Virus record (IMG/VR): IMGVR_UViG_3300050336_000030
Reading direction: 5' to 3' (one strand)
Length of the DNA stretch: 64,000 bases
Source: a virus
Taxonomy: Duplodnaviria > Caudoviricetes
The position numbers were made by a program, and so were the translations under genes. A model generated the notes under the pieces. It saw nothing but the letters and a program-made list of their open reading frames with translations, did no database searches and was not told the origin of the DNA. How positions within the stretch are numbered: position 1 is the first letter of the stretch; each line of letters begins with the position of its first letter. This document shows positions 55,942 to 63,858 of this stretch, piece by piece.

Positions 55942-57045
55942 CTAAGCTATCTTCGTAGTTCCTACGATTCTATTTCTCAAACCCTCGTTGAGTATATTTA
56001 TTGCTGCGTTTATATCTCTTTCATGATGAGTTCCACATTCTGGACAAGTCCATTCTCTAACTGACAACGGTTTCTTTCCATCAATATGCCCACAATTTGA
56101 ACAAGTTTGACTTGATGGATACCATGTGTCAATTCTTACGATTTCTCGTCCATACCAATTAGCTTTATATTCTAGCTGTCTTACAAACTCAGACCACGAT
56201 GCATCAGCCACTGACTTTGATAATTTGTGATTCTTCATCATGTTCTTTACTTTCAATGTCTCTAAAGCGATTACTTGATTTTCGTCAATCAACCTTTTTG
56301 ACAACTTATTTAAGAAATCTTTTCTTTGATTAGCAATTTTCTCATGTTGTTTGGCAACTTTGATTCTTGCTTTTTCTCTGTTCTTACTTCCTTTTTTAGT
56401 TCTTGATAAATCCTTTTGCAATTTTTTAAGTTTATTTTCTGACTTTCTTATAAATTTTGGATTCTCAATCATTTCTCCATCAGACGTTATTGCAAATTCT
56501 TTGATACCTAAATCAATTCCTATCATGTTGTTTGATTGTTTTATTTCTTTTTCATTATCGCAATCAACCAAAACAGAAACATAGTACTTACCACTTGGAA
56601 CTTTTAATACTGTAACAGATTTAATCAATCCTTCAAACTCTCTATGTTTCTTTACTTTAACCAATCCGATTTTAGGTAGCTTTATATACCTTTTTGAAAT
56701 ATAGATATTGCCACCTTGGTTATTCGTAGTATAAGAGTAGTAGTTATTTTTCTTACTCTTGAATTTTGGAAATCCTGTATCTGGTCTTTTGAAAAAGTTA
56801 TTATATGCTGTCTGCAAATTCATTTGAGCATTTGCCAAAGCAAGAGAATCTACTTCTTTTAACCACTCAAACTCTTTTTTATATTGAGCTGGAGTATTAT
56901 TGAGTTTCTGTTTCGTTTCATTATAATAATTGATTTTATCTGAAAGCATACGATTATAAATGAATCGTACACATCCGAATGTTTTTGCAAAATATTCTTG
57001 TTGTTCTTTATTTGGATAAAGTCTATATTTGTATGCTACTAACAT
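55942..57045 (-). CDS. tnpB: TnpB RNA-guided nuclease
   Basis: [21 protein letters not shown]...CPEC, RDINAA. Confidence 0.95.
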
Positions 57046-57140
57046 TTATAATCATCTCCTTTCTAAAATAATTATATCATAGTGATATCACCTTGTCAAC
57101 TAAAATATTATATGTTATAATACTTTTTGGAGGTGATTTT

Positions 57141-57287
57141 ATGATATCTGAAAACAATATCAGAGTACTTGTTACTATGCCAAAAGAAACAAAAGAAAAA
57201 CTTGAAAAGTTAGCTAAGGAAGATAATAGAAGTGTAAATAATTTAATTTTAACTGTTATCAACAAATACATTAATAATCAACCTTGA
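57141..57287 (+). CDS. Arc/CopG-like ribbon-helix-helix regulator inside the IS
   Basis: RVLVTMPKETKEKLEKLAKEDNRSVNNLI; SD GGAGGTG. Confidence 0.75.
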   Translation: MISENNIRVLVTMPKETKEKLEKLAKEDNRSVNNLILTVINKYINNQP

Positions 57288-57676
57288 TTTTCTATGTATC
57301 GTTTTAACGTTTCACTACTAACTTCTCCAATGCTTGAACAGAAATATCCATCAGTCCAAAATGTGTTTTCTTTCCAAAATTGTTTCTTTAATTCGTTTCG
57401 ATGACGACCATATATAATTTGTGTTGATTGTTGTTTTAAGGCTCTAACTATCATCAATGGAGATAGTTTTGGTTCACTTTCAATCATCATGTGTATATGG
57501 TCTTTATCTACTTCAATTTCTAAAATATCAAAGTCATATCTGTATGATATATCTTTCATTATTTGTTTTATTTCTTCTCCATATTTTATAAGAAGTTTCT
57601 TACGATATTTACATACAAAGATTATATGATATTTTATGTTATATTTACTATGATTTTTACTTTTGTAGTTGCTCAT
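57278..57676 (-). CDS. tnpA: IS200-type Y1 (HUH) transposase
   Basis: YHIIFVCKYR, DHIH, FWTDGYF, YIENQ. Confidence 0.95.
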   Translation of the reverse strand: MSNYKSKNHSKYNIKYHIIFVCKYRKKLLIKYGEEIKQIMKDISYRYDFDILEIEVDKDHIHMMIESEPKLSPLMIVRALKQQSTQIIYGRHRNELKKQFWKENTFWTDGYFCSSIGEVSSETLKRYIENQG

Positions 57677-58189: not shown

Positions 58190-58459
58190 TTAACTTCCAG
58201 CTTTCCATCTATGTCCACATTGCAAACATGTAATATAAACATTTTGACTTCCTATTAATCCAGTAGTTAGAGTTATTCCTTTTTTATTAGCGGATACTTG
58301 GGTAGATAAACATTTAGGACACTTAACTACTCCTTCTAGATGAGCATTTTTAATGTTTTGCTCTCTTAATCTTTTTTGGTTAGATTCTTTTGCTTTTGAA
58401 CTAGAACTCATTAAATAAATAACTGCAATAATAATTAAAATTAAAACTAATCCATCCAT
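58190..58459 (-). CDS. TM-anchored Zn-ribbon protein
   Basis: N-terminal TM, CPKC...CLQCGHRW. Confidence 0.75.
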   Translation of the reverse strand: MDGLVLILIIIAVIYLMSSSSKAKESNQKRLREQNIKNAHLEGVVKCPKCLSTQVSANKKGITLTTGLIGSQNVYITCLQCGHRWKAGS

Positions 58460-58660: not shown

Positions 58661-58753
58661 TAAATTCCTCCTTACACAAACAAATGTTTAGTATTGTATT
58701 AAATTTACATTAATGTTAATATATTCCTATACAAAAGATAGGAGATAAGCAGT

Positions 58754-59284
58754 ATGCAAGTAATAAATAAATTAATAGAGGAATTTGAAAATATATTTAC
58801 TATTATAGAAGAATCAAATAGTTATAAAATAATACAATATTTAAAACAAATCCCTCTATTATGCGCTCTTAATACTCAGTCCGCCAAAAACAGAGAATTA
58901 AGAACACTTGATCAACGCCATTTTCATCCAATAAATGTTTTTCGTGGAGATATTCACAATGCAACTATAACCGAAGGAGTTGGCAGCGAATTAAGTGGAG
59001 ATCACCTTGTTATAATAATACAGAATAAGACTAGTAATATATTTGGCGAAAAAGTAACCGTATTAGCAATCGAAGGTGATGGAAACTCAATTGATCTAAA
59101 ATATCAAATGAAATTGAGCAATGATGACCTAAGTTATGGACATCTTGATAAAAACCCTTCAAGAATTATTATCTCTGATATTATCACGATTGATAAATCA
59201 AGGTTGCAAAGAAAAATAGCAACAATAAATTCTACAAAAATGACAGAAATTAATCAAAGACTAAGAAAACAATTACAGTTATAA
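58754..59284 (+). CDS. orphan PemK/MazF-like endoribonuclease
   Basis: RGDI, GSELSG.H.VIIIQN...N, I.TIDKSRL. Confidence 0.8.
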   Translation: MQVINKLIEEFENIFTIIEESNSYKIIQYLKQIPLLCALNTQSAKNRELRTLDQRHFHPINVFRGDIHNATITEGVGSELSGDHLVIIIQNKTSNIFGEKVTVLAIEGDGNSIDLKYQMKLSNDDLSYGHLDKNPSRIIISDIITIDKSRLQRKIATINSTKMTEINQRLRKQLQL

Positions 59285-59346
59285 TTTTTTTTGAAAATAA
59301 TGAAAATAGTTGTTGCATTTTATATAAATTGTGTTATACTTAATAT

Positions 59347-59560
59347 ATAAATAAGTTATCAAGTCTGGCAACAGACATTGGCTATGAATTAATAGCTTTC
59401 CAGTGGAGGATATATAAATTAATTTTATAATATTCTCCACATATTTTTTTAGTAAATGAATATAATTATATAGAAGTAATATCAAGCCGAAAGGCATTGG
59501 TGAAAACTTCGTCAAGAAGAGTCATTAGAATAAAATCTTTTGGCTCTTCATTTTTTATTT
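59347..59560 (+). ncRNA. candidate ncRNA with two TATCAA-[GNRA hairpin]-ATTGG units
   Basis: promoter TTGCAT 59313 / TGnTATACT 59335; units at 59357-59381 and 59480-59500; terminator-like hairpins. Confidence 0.55.
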
Positions 59561-59610: not shown

Positions 59611-60576
59611 TTATTTAGTTATTGTGACATTACAATTCAAAACAATTATCTTTTTACTTTGAGTGGTTATGATACATCTAACAATTGCATTTCCTTCACC
59701 TTTTGCTGTTATAAGTCCGTTCGTCGTATTAACAGTTGCTATAGTTTTATTTGATGATACATATTTATATCTACTTCCGACAAGTTGGTTCTCAACGTTA
59801 ACGTCGTATTTGTCACCAACAGATAAATCAATATCTGTATCTGAAAGTACAGGTGATTCATCATCCAATCCAACCACAACATCTGAAGTTAAGGTATAAA
59901 TATCACCATCTTGACTTTTAACCTTACAAGTAATTTTCGTTTTACCATCTTTAATTCCTTTAACAACTCCAGTTTTAGAATTTACCGTTGCAACTTTTGT
60001 ATTACTTGAAGTCCAAGAATAAGTGCTGTTTTCAAGCTTATTATCTACATTGATATCATAAGTCGATGAAGTATCTAATAGAAGAGAAGTGGCAGTAAGA
60101 GATGGCGAATTTGTATCTGGGTTAATTGTATTGTCTATTCCCCTAACCCATTCAACTTCTTGATCTTCTATATTGACATCAGGTTCTTTCGTTTTTGGAT
60201 CTTTTATTCCATATAAGTAAATTTCAGCACTAAATGTTTTATTATTAAAATTAGTGAATTTTAAGGTTACAGTTTGTTCTCCCTCTTTAATAATATAAGC
60301 AGGATTTTCCCATTCGTAATTACCAAATATGACACCGTCATTATAGTACATTAATCCATCAACTTTATATTTACTAAGTCTTTCTCCGATATACGCATTT
60401 GGTTCATCCTCAGTATAATTTTTAGAATTATATGCAATGGTATACGCATATTTAATATTATCATCACTATAAGATTCTACAACGAAACTATCATTTTCAT
60501 TAGCAAAAATTGTTTTTGGTATGAATAAAAACGATAAACAAAAATAAAAGATAAAAATCTTTTTAAATGTCTTCAT
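59611..60576 (-). CDS. secreted protein with two Ig-like (Big_2) domains
   Basis: signal peptide; WTSSNTKVATV...G.VKG..G.T.I repeated twice. Confidence 0.8.
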   Translation of the reverse strand: MKTFKKIFIFYFCLSFLFIPKTIFANENDSFVVESYSDDNIKYAYTIAYNSKNYTEDEPNAYIGERLSKYKVDGLMYYNDGVIFGNYEWENPAYIIKEGEQTVTLKFTNFNNKTFSAEIYLYGIKDPKTKEPDVNIEDQEVEWVRGIDNTINPDTNSPSLTATSLLLDTSSTYDINVDNKLENSTYSWTSSNTKVATVNSKTGVVKGIKDGKTKITCKVKSQDGDIYTLTSDVVVGLDDESPVLSDTDIDLSVGDKYDVNVENQLVGSRYKYVSSNKTIATVNTTNGLITAKGEGNAIVRCIITTQSKKIIVLNCNVTITK

Positions 60577-60636
60577 AAGCAACAACACCTCCTAAATATA
60601 GTATACCACTTTTTGCATATAATATAAAGAAAAATT

Positions 60637-63600
60637 TTACATATTATTAATTTTTTGTTCTAACTCTTGTACCCTTGCATATAATTTTTGAATCATTAGA
60701 ACTTCAACAGCATGAAAATTTTCATAATTTATTCTATGAATATAATCGTCAACATATAGTCCTTCATCTGTATATGTTCTAACGTTCATTTTATCAATCA
60801 AATTATATTCATATGGATTAATATTAAATGACTGAAATGCCGATTCTACTTCTTGGGCTAAAAATCCAAAGACTTTAGTTTCAGGATAATTACTACATTT
60901 AAATTCGTACTGTTTTGGTTTAAATAACATAAATAATTCTTCTGGAAAATCCAAGGCCAATATATTTTTTTTAAGTCTCATATCAGAAGATGAAATACGT
61001 TGAAAATTATCATCAACCCACGTTACACTAGCTGCATTTTTTCCTTTAAATCCTATATTTTCGCTCGACGTCAAGTCTGGCTCTATTTGATTTGTGTGAT
61101 AATCTGTTAATGCTACTGCATAATTATCAAAATTATCGTCAGTTAATGGTATATCTCCATTAATTGTCGAAAGTCTTACATCTCCACTCGAAGAAGCAAG
61201 AAATGATGAAGTACTTTCATTTCTACCTATTATACCAATTTGTGTAGCATTCATAAATACATATCCGGCAGAATCATCAGAAAAATCTTCGGTTATTCCG
61301 TTTATTGGCCTGACATAAATAACATTTGTTGTAGTTACTCCATTTTCTATGTGAGTTTTCATTGGAGTTCCTAAATTATCATATCCAAATGAAGTAAAAG
61401 CAGAACCAGAAATAATTGAGCCATCAATGGTGCTACCACTTATATTTCCTTTTATTGTTGCATTTTTAGCAGTTAATGCACCACTCGATGTTACTGTAAA
61501 GTCACCTCCTCCAATGTCTATAGATGAAGCGGTAATTTTACCAGAAAAGTTAGATTGTGTCATTGTAACTTCCCCTGTACTGGTTACTTTAAAATTTTTG
61601 CTGTCTATTGTTCCATATGTAAGATTAATGTACATTCCAGTATTTCCAGAAACATAATTTGAAGAAGATATACTTCCACCAATAAAATTTGCTGCACTTA
61701 TAAGCCCTGAAAACACTAAATTATTAGTAGTTGTGTCTACATATAAAACTTTTGATCCGTTAACTTTTACATTTATAATTTCAGATGGTAGACTAGGATT
61801 AATACCGACGCTATAGATTCCGTTAACCGCCTGAAGTCCATTATCATCTGTGATTGAATATGTACCGCTTTTATTATATATCTTTAAAGCTGAAGATAAA
61901 ATTAAGTTTGCAACAACAGTTTCTCCGTTAACACCGTAATAATAATGACCATCATCTGCTAAATATTTTCCTATACACATTCTAGCACTTTCAAAATTAT
62001 CATCTGAAAGAACTATCTTATTTTTCACTAACCACATTTCTTCTGGTAAATATGTTCCTGTAGTAATATCTTTTTCTCTTAACCTTAACCCATAACTTCC
62101 ATATGTAACTTCTTGATTATCGCTATTTACAATTTCTTGTGTAGCTGCATTTAAAGCATTATTCATGTATTGCTGAATAACATTGGTTTGATCCGCAGCT
62201 TTATCCCAGCTAATACCACTTACTTTTACAGTATTACTGGTTTGATTTGCCTGAGCTTGAGTCTTTGCAAAGTCAATACTGTTGCTATCTAATTTATTTC
62301 TATTAGAAAATACTACCGTTAAATCATCAATCTTTTCAAAATCAATCTTAATCGACAAAAGTCTTGCAATTGCAATATTATCTTTTGTGACTTTTACTTT
62401 TATAATATTTCCTAATTCAAAATCATCTTGATAACCTTTAAACTCAGGTAACATAAATAAATTTGCAAGAGTTGTTTCCAATGAAAATTGAGGTTGACTT
62501 GCTATTGTTAACGCTTCATCCGCAACATTATATAACTGTTGTTTAATTTCTAAAGCCGTTTCTTCTGAATCCTCTTCACCAACCACATATGTTTCATCAA
62601 CATATTCATCTTCAAATGTAAAATTACGTAATTCTTTTATTTGTTCAGCAGTAAAATTATTTGGAGTAGCTAATTGATCCGCTATACTTGATATAGTATT
62701 ATTTAAGGCTGTTATTTGAGCTTCTTTAGCTGATATTTGATTTTCTCTAACTGTAATTTCAGATTGAACAGCAAGTAATGTATTTCTTGTAGATGTGTAT
62801 TCCGCATATTGTGGACTATTTTTTGAACCAGCTCCATTACTTAATAAAACTGACTGCAAATCTGTATAGGTCTTTTCTTGTGATTCAAGTTCAGTTAATC
62901 CATATTGAGTCCAATCAGTAGTGGGAGATGACGGAACTTTATTTTTTAACTCTAGTAATTGCGTATTATAAGTTTTTAATAATGAAACATTGTTAGTTTG
63001 TGTAGCAGATAAACTTGCATATTTTACTTTATAAGTATTCCAAGCAGTAACTAATCCGTCAGTAGCTTTACCTCCTTGTGATTTTGGAACCATAAACCAA
63101 TCAAAATTATATATCTTATCATCTAAAGTGGGACTTACCGCACGAATATCTAAATTATCTCCACCTCTGACCCTATAGCAAGTCGTTATATTCTCAAGGC
63201 TTGATGTGATAACATTCTCTTGTACTAAGTTTCGATAAGATAAAAATATATTTGTATTCTTTCCAAAATTATCAATTGTATAGGCGTTGATAACACGATT
63301 GTGAGTATCAAAATTAAAAATACATTTGAACGAAGTTGAAATTGAATCAGTCAATAAACTATAGACATCTGAGGATTCGATATCAAATGTGCGATAAAGT
63401 GTTTTAAGTGAATCATCAATATGACCTATAGACCAATTTCCAAGATAGCTACATATAATATGCATTAGACTCTTATCAGTTTCCGCAACATTATAAAGTG
63501 ATAGTACACCTGAAATATCAAATATTTTACGTCTTTTAAGTTCATATTCTAATGATTTAGCCGTTATTTCCTTATATGCATTAACCCCCGTTCCATGTTC

Positions 63601-63858
63601 TTCAACATCTATAATCCAATAAACTCCCAATAATTGTGCTTCTACTAAGTTACCCTCGGTAACTAAATCATAGTATTCAACATCTTTTCCGTCCAATTTT
63701 TTATAGATATTAAAATTCATTACTGAAATATCGTTTGCATTTAATTCAAAATTTAATTTATTCCCAGTTTTAAGCTCTCCATGACCATCTTCATTAGGGA
63801 TTCTTAAAAACAATTTAGGTCGATTAATTTTGTCATTGTAATTTAATTTAAAATACAT
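60637..63858 (-). CDS. tail spike/Tal-like protein with C-terminal intramolecular chaperone (Peptidase S74-like)
   Basis: prophage-tail N-terminus; C-terminal SSDMRLKKNI, GFLAQEVE, INYE. Confidence 0.85.
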   Translation of the reverse strand: MYFKLNYNDKINRPKLFLRIPNEDGHGELKTGNKLNFELNANDISVMNFNIYKKLDGKDVEYYDLVTEGNLVEAQLLGVYWIIDVEEHGTGVNAYKEITAKSLEYELKRRKIFDISGVLSLYNVAETDKSLMHIICSYLGNWSIGHIDDSLKTLYRTFDIESSDVYSLLTDSISTSFKCIFNFDTHNRVINAYTIDNFGKNTNIFLSYRNLVQENVITSSLENITTCYRVRGGDNLDIRAVSPTLDDKIYNFDWFMVPKSQGGKATDGLVTAWNTYKVKYASLSATQTNNVSLLKTYNTQLLELKNKVPSSPTTDWTQYGLTELESQEKTYTDLQSVLLSNGAGSKNSPQYAEYTSTRNTLLAVQSEITVRENQISAKEAQITALNNTISSIADQLATPNNFTAEQIKELRNFTFEDEYVDETYVVGEEDSEETALEIKQQLYNVADEALTIASQPQFSLETTLANLFMLPEFKGYQDDFELGNIIKVKVTKDNIAIARLLSIKIDFEKIDDLTVVFSNRNKLDSNSIDFAKTQAQANQTSNTVKVSGISWDKAADQTNVIQQYMNNALNAATQEIVNSDNQEVTYGSYGLRLREKDITTGTYLPEEMWLVKNKIVLSDDNFESARMCIGKYLADDGHYYYGVNGETVVANLILSSALKIYNKSGTYSITDDNGLQAVNGIYSVGINPSLPSEIINVKVNGSKVLYVDTTTNNLVFSGLISAANFIGGSISSSNYVSGNTGMYINLTYGTIDSKNFKVTSTGEVTMTQSNFSGKITASSIDIGGGDFTVTSSGALTAKNATIKGNISGSTIDGSIISGSAFTSFGYDNLGTPMKTHIENGVTTTNVIYVRPINGITEDFSDDSAGYVFMNATQIGIIGRNESTSSFLASSSGDVRLSTINGDIPLTDDNFDNYAVALTDYHTNQIEPDLTSSENIGFKGKNAASVTWVDDNFQRISSSDMRLKKNILALDFPEELFMLFKPKQYEFKCSNYPETKVFGFLAQEVESAFQSFNINPYEYNLIDKMNVRTYTDEGLYVDDYIHRINYENFHAVEVLMIQKLYARVQELEQKINNM

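What the first reader, a model, noticed from the sequence alone, without database searches (positions are those of the whole stretch)
58754..59560. Orphan PemK/MazF-fold protein followed by a repeated structured RNA: candidate RNA-antitoxin (type III-like) system
Seen: no co-oriented protein antitoxin gene. Just after the stop lie a promoter (TTGCAT, TGnTATACT 59335) and about 210 nt without a credible ORF, containing two units with identical flanks but different, fully paired stems: AAGT-TATCAA-GTCTG-GCAA-CAGAC-ATTGG (59353-59381) and AAGTAA-TATCAA-GCC-GAAA-GGC-ATTGG (59474-59500). Both have GNRA loops, and TCAA can pair with TTGG leaving a bulged A. Each unit is followed by a terminator-like hairpin (GTGGAG/CTCCAC; GAAGAGTCA/TGGCTCTTC). 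The protein has H in place of the usual MazF RP arginine and an N-terminal extension of about 60 aa. Known: type III toxins (ToxN, AbiQ) share the PemK fold and are neutralised by repeated RNAs, but those RNAs are upstream pseudoknots. Inference: a distinct PemK-ncRNA module, probably abortive-infection defence.
Basis: partly seen in the sequence, partly recalled or inferred. Interest (0 to 1): 0.75.

Follow-up and report, generated by a model that had tools for sequence, protein, structure and literature searches.

The report
MazF-type toxin with partner small RNAs
A phage gene for an enlarged MazF-type RNA-cutting toxin has no protein antidote, but in every intact relative I could read it is followed by two small folded RNA genes found in no RNA database, which are most likely its antidote.

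Summary
Window 58754-59284 encodes a 176-aa PemK/MazF-family protein with a conserved 60-aa N-terminal helical hairpin. His84 and Glu107 replace the MazF catalytic Arg and Thr. A promoter lies just after the stop, followed by two small RNA units (59353-59450 and 59476-59556). Each unit reads UAUCNAG box, hairpin P2, CAUUGG linker, hairpin P3, UUUUCNAG box, terminator.

A covariance model built from these units found 66 copies in 261 kb of related loci. All lie on the gene's strand just downstream of a homologue. It found no other copy in five whole genomes or in 150 further Bacilli genomes. Of 40 intact homologues, 38 have a model hit; one contig ends too early and one has diverged units. No protein partner is conserved.

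P2 covaries strongly. The variable base N is the same in both boxes in 46 of 49 distinct units. Rfam 15, including its unrelated pemK motif, has no match.

My best reading is a type III-like toxin-antitoxin cassette built on a true MazF toxin, with the boxes as toxin recognition or cleavage sites. This is inferred, not shown. It meets no layout criterion of ToxIN, CptIN or TenpIN. This scan has noted the same kind of layout before on other DNA, but not this sequence family. I found no published description.

The parts
58704..58733 (+). Possible promoter of the toxin gene (TTTACA, 18 nt, TATACA). An RBS GGAG lies at 58741-58744.
   Evidence: Read from the sequence. Not tested and low confidence.
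58754..59284 (+). Long MazF/PemK-family gene, 176 aa. It has an N-terminal helical hairpin (residues 2-52) and a MazF domain (64-174). His84 and Glu107 are invariant and sit where MazF has its catalytic Arg and Thr.
   Evidence: Pfam PF02452, 58.5 bits. Family alignment A1. PDB profile alignment to 4mzm. AF2 model with pLDDT 92.5. Foldseek target-normalised TM 0.89 to B. subtilis YdcE 1ne8.
59313..59340 (+). Promoter of small RNA 1: TTGCAT, 16 nt, TGtTATACT.
   Evidence: The equivalent site is near-consensus (TTGACA/TTGACT, 16-17 nt, TATAAT, often with TG) in most related loci.
59353..59406 (+). RNA unit 1 core. 5' box TATCAAG 59357-59363; P2 59363-59376 with loop GCAA; linker ATTGG 59377-59381; P3 GCTAT/ATAGC 59381-59396; 3' box TTTCCAG 59397-59403.
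   Evidence: CM R1 45.0 bits and R2 43.3 bits. Fold.
59403..59450 (+). Terminator of unit 1: GTGGAG...CTCCAC stem extended by A-U pairs, then a U run.
   Evidence: Equivalent hairpin plus U run detected after 52 of 66 units by a crude script.
59461..59466 (+). TATAAT -10 element ahead of unit 2, with no good -35.
   Evidence: A -10-like element lies ahead of unit 2 in many loci. Unit 2 may also be reached by read-through.
59476..59519 (+). RNA unit 2 core. 5' box TATCAAG 59480-59486; P2 GCC/GGC 59486-59495 with loop GAAA; linker ATTGG 59496-59500; short P3 59500-59507; 3' box TCAAG 59512-59516.
   Evidence: CM R1 34.1 bits and R2 32.0 bits. Fold.
59516..59556 (+). Terminator of unit 2: GAAGAGTCA...TGGCTCTTC, then A and six T.
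   Evidence: (-16.1 kcal/mol).

Best explanation
This is a self-contained cassette of about 0.85 kb that works like a type III toxin-antitoxin system but is built on a genuine MazF/PemK toxin.

The parts:
- The 176-aa protein is a MazF-fold endoribonuclease. It has an extra N-terminal helical hairpin and a changed active site (His84 and Glu107 instead of Arg and Thr).
- It has no protein antitoxin.
- Directly after its stop codon, a strong promoter drives a small RNA that ends at its own terminator. A second, similar small RNA follows.
- Because no terminator separates the gene from unit 1, the toxin mRNA itself probably carries unit 1 in its 3' end.

Proposed mechanism:
- Each RNA presents two single-stranded copies of one short box (U-C-N-A-G) on either side of a two-hairpin scaffold.
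- I propose that these boxes are the toxin's recognition or cleavage sites.
- The RNA would bind the toxin dimer through them, possibly after being trimmed at both boxes, as ToxN trims ToxI. Excess RNA would keep the nuclease inactive.
- Loss of the cassette, or a shut-off of transcription, would free the toxin.

What is shown: the family, the fold, the strict gene-RNA linkage, the RNA structure, the box co-variation, and the absence of a conserved protein partner.

What is inferred: toxicity, direct RNA-protein binding, cleavage at the boxes, and the biological role (addiction, exclusion or defence).
For: Protein:
- PemK_toxin at 58.5 bits.
- The closest solved relatives are S. aureus and B. 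subtilis MazF, at E 1e-17 and target-normalised TM 0.89.
- The family aligns over its full length, and H84, E107 and the KxPSR motif are invariant.

No protein partner:
- No ORF is conserved across clades within 1.2 kb upstream or 1.5 kb downstream.
- Flanking genes differ in every clade.

Gene-RNA linkage:
- CM R1 gave 55 hits and R2 gave 66. All are on the gene's strand, just after the homologue's stop, in 261 kb searched on both strands.
- All 7 full-length IMG/VR relatives also carry the units.
- In five whole genomes or records (about 21 Mb) the only hits are the copies at the locus.
- None was found in 150 further Bacilli genomes.
- Of 40 intact genes, 38 have a CM hit. One contig ends 99 nt after the stop. 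One has diverged units visible by eye.

RNA structure:
- P2 is 96% paired, with compensatory changes at 4 of 5 pairs. Covariation score is 0.48 against 0.27 in shuffles and 0.14 or less when slid.
- Many G-U pairs in P3 fit the + strand transcript.
- Near-consensus promoters and terminators flank the units.

Boxes: the variable base is identical in the 5' and 3' box in 46 of 49 distinct units (A/A 23, T/T 21, G/G 2; 0 of 10000 permutations reach this). It switches several times on the protein tree.

Toxin-antitoxin-like contexts:
- A 29%-identical relative with two diverged units sits next to RepB on a 6.5-kb plasmid.
- Other copies lie next to ParA, a resolvase, a terminase or endolysins.
- Proteins are identical in MAGs labelled as different genera.
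Against: - No experiment exists. Toxicity, RNA binding and cleavage are all inferred.
- Both canonical MazF catalytic residues are replaced, so the protein could be a non-toxic RNA binder.
- The conserved N-terminal domain has no assigned role and could itself regulate the nuclease.
- I found no protein residue that cleanly tracks the box type.
- The permutation test for box identity does not correct for shared ancestry.
- P3 is only about 80% paired, and its alignment is imperfect.
- Unit 2 has a weak promoter in many loci.
- The layout (RNA downstream, not a tandem array) differs from every validated type III system.
Confidence: 0.6

Rival explanations
1. The protein is not a toxin. It is a dedicated RNA-binding or RNA-processing protein, a MazF fold with a rebuilt or dead active site. 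It matures or stabilises the two small RNAs, which themselves carry the function, for example regulating host or phage transcripts.
For: - The catalytic Arg and Thr of MazF are both replaced.
- The gene-RNA linkage is strict, as expected of any obligate RNP.
- The extra N-terminal domain has no known role.
Against: - His84 and Glu107 are invariant. A His/Glu pair is a classical RNase acid-base pair (general knowledge of RNase T1 and barnase), so the site looks remodelled rather than decayed.
- The conserved parts of the RNA are only the short boxes and the linker. Hairpin sequences and loops vary freely, leaving little room for a base-pairing effector function.
- The cassette sits in places typical of addiction modules, such as next to RepB on a 6.5-kb plasmid.
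Confidence: 0.17
2. The N-terminal helical hairpin is a built-in (cis) inhibitor or regulator of the nuclease. The downstream RNAs only tune expression, through 3'-end stability of the toxin mRNA, transcriptional insulation, or titration.
For: - The N-terminal domain is conserved over the whole family and packs confidently on the MazF domain (pTM 0.85).
- Unit 1 is probably also the 3' end of the toxin mRNA, because no terminator lies between the stop and unit 1.
Against: - A dedicated near-consensus promoter sits between the stop codon and unit 1 in most loci. That argues for separate, abundant RNAs rather than a 3' UTR element.
- The two matching boxes per unit and their concerted change are not explained by a stability element.
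Confidence: 0.12
3. The small RNAs act by base-pairing with the toxin mRNA (type I-like or sRNA-like repression of translation), not by binding the protein.
For: In the window, the 5' box with its flank is complementary to the codons of the conserved LDK motif (CTTGATAAA).
Against: - That complementarity does not follow the box type in other loci. Loci with TCTAG boxes have CTG GAT, and the TCGAG locus has TTG GAT.
- The RNAs are on the same strand and downstream, so they are not antisense.
- The conserved single-stranded segments are only 5-7 nt long.
Confidence: 0.05
4. The hairpins are only terminators and chance repeats in AT-rich spacer DNA.
For: AT-rich sequence gives many inverted repeats. 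The simple scanner did not call the two + strand terminators.
Against: - There are 66 copies with compensatory changes, strictly tied to one gene family across Clostridia, Bacilli, plasmids and phages.
- Fold z-scores are -5.6 and -6.3.
Confidence: 0.01

Closest known systems
Type III toxin-antitoxin systems ToxIN/AbiQ, CptIN and TenpIN (Blower et al. 2012, PMC3401426)
   Same: - An endoribonuclease toxin of the wider Kid/MazF/CcdB fold with no protein antitoxin.
- A repeated structured RNA encoded beside it.
- The RNA has its own promoter and terminators that would give it in excess.
- Single-stranded tails flank a structured core, as in processed ToxI.
- Found on plasmids, phages and chromosomes of Firmicutes.
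   Different: - The toxin is a true PF02452 MazF, which Blower et al. place in a clade apart from the three type III families.
- The RNA lies downstream, not upstream.
- It is two separate terminated genes of about 50% identity, not a tandem array (TRF finds none).
- The core is two hairpins, not a pseudoknot.
- Each unit carries two copies of the box instead of one per repeat.
- Binding and processing are untested.
Type II MazEF/PemIK, closest to B. subtilis EndoA (YdcE) and S. aureus MazF (PDB 1ne8, 4mdx, 4mzm)
   Same: - Same Pfam family and fold: about 32% identity and target-normalised TM 0.89.
- The same conserved core motifs align, such as IIQN and TxDKxRL.
   Different: - No MazE/PemI gene.
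- A 60-aa N-terminal helical hairpin is added.
- The catalytic Arg is replaced by His84 and the Thr by Glu107, both invariant.
- An RNA partner is conserved instead of a protein one.
Rfam pemK RNA motif (RF02913)
   Same: The name only. It was named for an association with pemK genes (my recollection of Weinberg et al. 2017; the supplement was not available).
   Different: - No match in the phage genome at E <= 10, in the window region, or in 24 related loci.
- Its one hit, in Paenibacillus chartarius, is an unrelated GC-rich element upstream of a small ORF and a serine recombinase.
Earlier notes of this scan on other genomes: 'MazF-type toxin with partner small RNA'
   Same: An enlarged MazF-type toxin with no protein antidote, followed by its own promoted structured small RNA.
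   Different: - No sequence look-alike of this protein or RNA was found among those notes, so they are probably sister families.
- Those notes are unchecked by me.

Membership tests
PemK/MazF toxin family (PF02452) | Sequence match to the family profile above the curated cut-off | tested here: met
   58.5 bits against a cut-off of 23.1, over residues 64-174 and the whole profile.
PemK/MazF toxin family (PF02452) | MazF/Kid SH3-like barrel fold | tested here: met
   AF2 model at pLDDT 92.5. Foldseek E 3e-10 and target-normalised TM 0.89 to 1ne8, 4mzm and 4mdx.
PemK/MazF toxin family (PF02452) | Catalytic Arg in the beta1-beta2 loop and Thr/Ser in the 'xITS' loop (roles from established knowledge of B. 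subtilis and E. coli MazF) | tested here: not met
   His84 aligns with the Arg of 'GGVRPV' and Glu107 with the Thr of 'AITG' in S. aureus MazF. Both are invariant in 29 family members.
Type II MazEF/PemIK system | Adjacent co-transcribed protein antitoxin gene | tested here: not met
   No co-oriented ORF in the window. No ORF is conserved across clades up- or downstream in 42 loci.
Type III TA (ToxIN/CptIN/TenpIN) | Toxin gene preceded by a terminator that is preceded by a tandem array of repeats (criteria of Blower 2012) | tested here: not met
   The RNA units lie downstream of the gene. TRF finds no tandem repeat. The two units share architecture, not sequence.
Type III TA (ToxIN/CptIN/TenpIN) | Toxin belongs to the ToxN/AbiQ, CptN or TenpN sequence family | tested here: not met
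   The only Pfam hit at E <= 1 is PemK_toxin. No PADLOC model matches. The top 50 structural matches are MazF proteins.
Type III TA (ToxIN/CptIN/TenpIN) | The RNA binds and inhibits the toxin protein, and the toxin processes the RNA into units | not testable with these tools
   Only indirect evidence: strict co-occurrence and matched boxes flanking each unit.
Rfam pemK motif (RF02913) | Match to the covariance model at or above 34.8 bits | tested here: not met
   No match at E <= 10 in the phage genome or the region. None in 24 related loci.
Type I TA / antisense RNA antitoxin | RNA complementary to the toxin mRNA | tested here: not met
   Same strand and non-overlapping. The single candidate complementarity does not covary.

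The most novel reading that the evidence does not exclude
This is a fourth, MazF-derived lineage of RNA-antidote (type III) toxin-antitoxin systems.

- The antidote is not a tandem array. It is two independent small-RNA genes placed after the toxin gene.
- Each RNA is bracketed by two copies of the toxin's own cleavage site, so the processed RNA keeps both product ends docked in the nuclease.
- The toxin has swapped the MazF Arg/Thr catalytic pair for His/Glu and gained an N-terminal RNA-holding domain.
- It would show a type II toxin family converting to an RNA antidote. That would link the two TA types by descent rather than by fold alone.
Probability: 0.45. Interest if true: 0.8.

Novelty: new variant of a known kind. 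Interest (0 to 1): 0.72.

Why it matters
MazF/PemK is a textbook type II toxin, always described with a protein antitoxin. Type III systems use three other toxin families. A conserved MazF subfamily whose only constant partner is a pair of small RNAs would have three consequences.

- It would extend RNA-antidote control to the MazF family itself.
- It would give a new, compact RNA-protein recognition pair. The co-varying 5-nt box suggests a programmable specificity.
- It would add an unannotated RNA family to phage, plasmid and gut-Firmicute genomes, where these genes are now annotated as orphan 'type II toxins'.

Its presence in a complete 140-kb phage also raises the question of what a phage does with it: host shut-off with self-protection, exclusion of rivals, or maintenance.

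Tried and rejected
- **Rfam.** No family matches the RNA. The Rfam pemK motif is a different element.
- **Antisense idea.** The box is complementary to the LDK codons in the window but does not covary elsewhere, so I rejected it.
The outer U-G and C-G are invariant and so uninformative. The inner pairs fail in 41 of 63 and 17 of 47 rows, so it is not supported.
- **Outer helix joining the unit's ends.** It is predicted for unit 2 in the window only and is not seen in the alignment by eye. I did not pursue it.
- **Protein residues tracking box type.** Only weak candidates emerged (positions 94 and 165), which is not decisive.
- **Named phages and plasmids.**
  - No INPHARED phage carries the family.
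  - A sister-family query hit only canonical MazF domains. The S. aureus 'phage' hit is the ordinary alr-mazE-mazF locus.
  - PLSDB gave one true distant relative (P. sordellii) and one ordinary type II pair (Brevibacillus).
- **Contexts of the sister subfamily** (His at the Arg position, Thr retained).
- **N-terminal domain.** Its only look-alike is another long-MazF cluster.
- **Weinberg 2017 supplement** on the pemK motif is not held.
- **Typed-sequence script.** I replaced it with short-motif searches.

Full report
**What is in the window.**
- The ORF at 58754-59284 (+) encodes 176 aa. It matches Pfam PemK_toxin at 58.5 bits over residues 64-174.
- It has no hit in PADLOC and only sub-threshold hits in NCBIfam.
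- No co-oriented ORF precedes it. The neighbours are a (-) strand 89-aa membrane/zinc-ribbon gene, an IS200/IS605 element, and (-) strand Big_2 and tail genes.
- The window belongs to a complete 139,975-bp virus record with direct terminal repeats. The gene lies about 3.4 kb from its right end.
- The phage's tail protein is distantly related to those of large Bacillus siphoviruses such as Tsamsa.

**The protein family.**
- A search of 5.8 billion proteins gave 88 clusters. Nearly all are 176-220 aa and align over the whole length, so the N-terminal extension is part of the family.
- In an alignment of 29 members, H58, P59, H84, E107, G108, G110 and the K133-x-P-S-R137 motif are invariant.
- A profile search of solved structures puts S. 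aureus MazF (4mzm, E 1e-17) and B. subtilis EndoA/YdcE first. In that alignment His84 stands where MazF has the Arg of 'GGVRPV', and Glu107 where it has the Thr of 'AITG'.
- The AlphaFold model is confident (pLDDT 92.5, pTM 0.85). It shows two long N-terminal helices (2-17, 20-52) followed by the MazF barrel.
- Foldseek gives a target-normalised TM of 0.89 to YdcE, and every listed match among the top 50 ranks is a MazF protein.
- So this is a true MazF-family member with a remodelled active site, not a ToxN-like protein.
- An exhaustive profile search found only 18 clusters (at 50% identity) at E <= 1e-30, so the family is small.
- A sister group of similar length keeps the His but has Thr at the second site.

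**The RNA.**
- I fetched 41 loci from species genomes and 8 from IMG/VR.
- The sequence after the stop codon shows the same plan in almost all of them:
  - a near-consensus promoter (TTGACA or TTGACT, 16-17 nt, TATAAT, often with TG);
  - then two units, each built as UAUC-N-AG, hairpin P2, C-A-Y-Y-G-G linker, hairpin P3 starting at the last G, UUUUC-N-AG, terminator hairpin, U run.
- A covariance model built from 25 units found 55 matches. A second model built from those found 66. All lie on the gene's strand within about 300 nt after the homologue's stop, in 261 kb searched on both strands.
- All seven full-length viral relatives have the units too.
- In the window the only two matches are 59353-59406 and 59476-59519.
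- P2 is 96% paired, with compensatory changes at four of five pairs. The covariation score is 0.48, against 0.27 for shuffles and 0.14 or less for slid partners.
- P3 is about 80% paired, with many G-U pairs. That fits an RNA read from the + strand.
- The two window transcripts fold with z-scores of -5.6 and -6.3.
- A crude script found a hairpin plus U run after 52 of 66 units.
- The two units of a locus are not sequence repeats, and TRF finds nothing.

**Linkage.**
- Searching whole genomes with the model gave only the copies at the locus in the phage and in four bacterial genomes, about 21 Mb in all. It gave nothing in 150 other Bacilli genomes.
- Of 40 loci with an apparently intact gene, 38 have a model hit. 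L021's contig ends 99 nt after the stop. L024 has diverged units visible by eye.
- Of 10 broken genes, five keep RNA units and five have none.
- So an intact gene without the RNA was not seen.
- No ORF up- or downstream is conserved across clades.
- The flanking genes are unrelated from locus to locus: ParA, a resolvase, the terminase large subunit, amidase and CHAP lysins, a Glu/Gln-tRNA synthetase, and NUDIX.
- The cassette is therefore self-contained and mobile. Proteins are identical in MAGs assigned to different genera.
- A 29%-identical long MazF on a 6.5-kb Paraclostridium sordellii plasmid lies directly after repB. It is followed by two diverged units of the same plan, with UAUUUAG boxes.

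**The boxes.**
- The variable base in the 5' box equals that in the 3' box in 46 of 49 distinct units (A/A 23, T/T 21, G/G 2). None of 10,000 permutations reaches this.
- All four boxes of a locus usually agree.
- The box type changes several times on the protein tree: A in several clades, T in Lachnospiraceae, L025 and L033, G in L011, and a shortened form in two clades.
- This is co-variation by identity, not by complementarity. It points to one reader for both boxes.
- The simplest candidate is the adjacent nuclease. Its relatives bind short single-stranded motifs (established knowledge of MazF).
- In ToxIN, the toxin cuts a tandem precursor once per repeat, so each processed unit carries the two halves of the site as its tails. 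Here the units are separate genes, and a site on each side would give the same result. This is my inference.
- I could not find a protein residue that cleanly tracks the box type. The permutation test also ignores shared ancestry.

**Alternatives tested.**
- The antisense idea fails.
- Rfam 15 has no match in the region at E <= 10, none at gathering score in 20 loci, and none at E <= 1 in four more.
- The Rfam pemK motif (RF02913) does not match the phage. Where it does match (Paenibacillus chartarius), it is an unrelated GC-rich element next to a recombinase.

**Comparison with what is known.**
- Blower et al. 2012 define a type III locus as a toxin gene preceded by a terminator and a tandem repeat array. 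They find three toxin families and place Kid, MazF and YdcE in a separate clade. They note one toxIN locus with the repeats downstream.
- The present system fails the layout and toxin-family criteria, so I do not file it as a member. It plausibly works in the same way.
- Full-text searches found no description of a MazF/PemK toxin with an RNA partner. The library lacks most subscription journals, so this is not proof of absence.
- Earlier notes of this scan describe the same kind of layout on other genomes, but no sequence look-alike of this family. I did not check those notes.

**Verdict.**
- The module is real, conserved, and absent from Rfam 15, Pfam, NCBIfam and PADLOC as a system.
- That the RNA is the antidote is the best-supported reading (about 0.6) but remains an inference.
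- A role in abortive infection is untested.

Noticed in passing
window 55942-57676: An IS200/IS605-type element inside the phage genome. tnpB (367 aa; OrfB_IS605 and Cas12f1-like TNB domains) and tnpA (132 aa; Y1_Tnp) are both on the - strand. A small + strand ORF lies between them at 57093-57287.
   Followed up: no
window 58190-58459 (-): An 89-aa protein with an N-terminal hydrophobic segment and a C-terminal CxxC...CxxC zinc ribbon, with weak hits to zinc-ribbon families. It lies directly upstream of the cassette on the other strand.
   Followed up: no
window 59611-63858 (-): A 325-aa secreted-looking protein with two Big_2 domains, and a 1073-aa tail protein. The tail protein is 23-25% identical to tail proteins or endopeptidases of large Bacillus siphoviruses such as Tsamsa, FADO and PK-3.
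   Followed up: partly
L042 1501-1581 (Paenibacillus chartarius, G004:C107:27501-27581): The Rfam pemK motif (RF02913, 58.5 bits) lies upstream of a 71-aa ORF and a serine recombinase, not next to a pemK gene.
   Followed up: partly
L051 1387-2200 (Paraclostridium sordellii plasmid NZ_CP124284.1): A 6.5-kb plasmid carries repB, then a 187-aa (564-bp CDS) long MazF 29% identical to the window's protein, then two diverged RNA units with UAUUUAG boxes and terminators. The record annotates only 'type II PemK/MazF toxin'.
   Followed up: partly
L001 3043-3513: In a Clostridium MAG the cassette's RNA units end about 150 nt before an S10 ribosomal-protein leader (RF03136). The cassette is therefore inserted just upstream of a core operon.
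   Followed up: no
A5 (P0101, P0107, P0111, P0122, P0162): A sister subfamily of 171-190-aa MazF proteins shares the N-terminal extension and the His at the catalytic Arg position but keeps Thr in the 'PIT' loop.
   Followed up: partly
L005, L006, L007: The toxin proteins are identical in MAGs or isolates labelled Roseburia, Clostridiaceae and Eubacterium. This suggests recent horizontal spread, or mis-binning.
   Followed up: no
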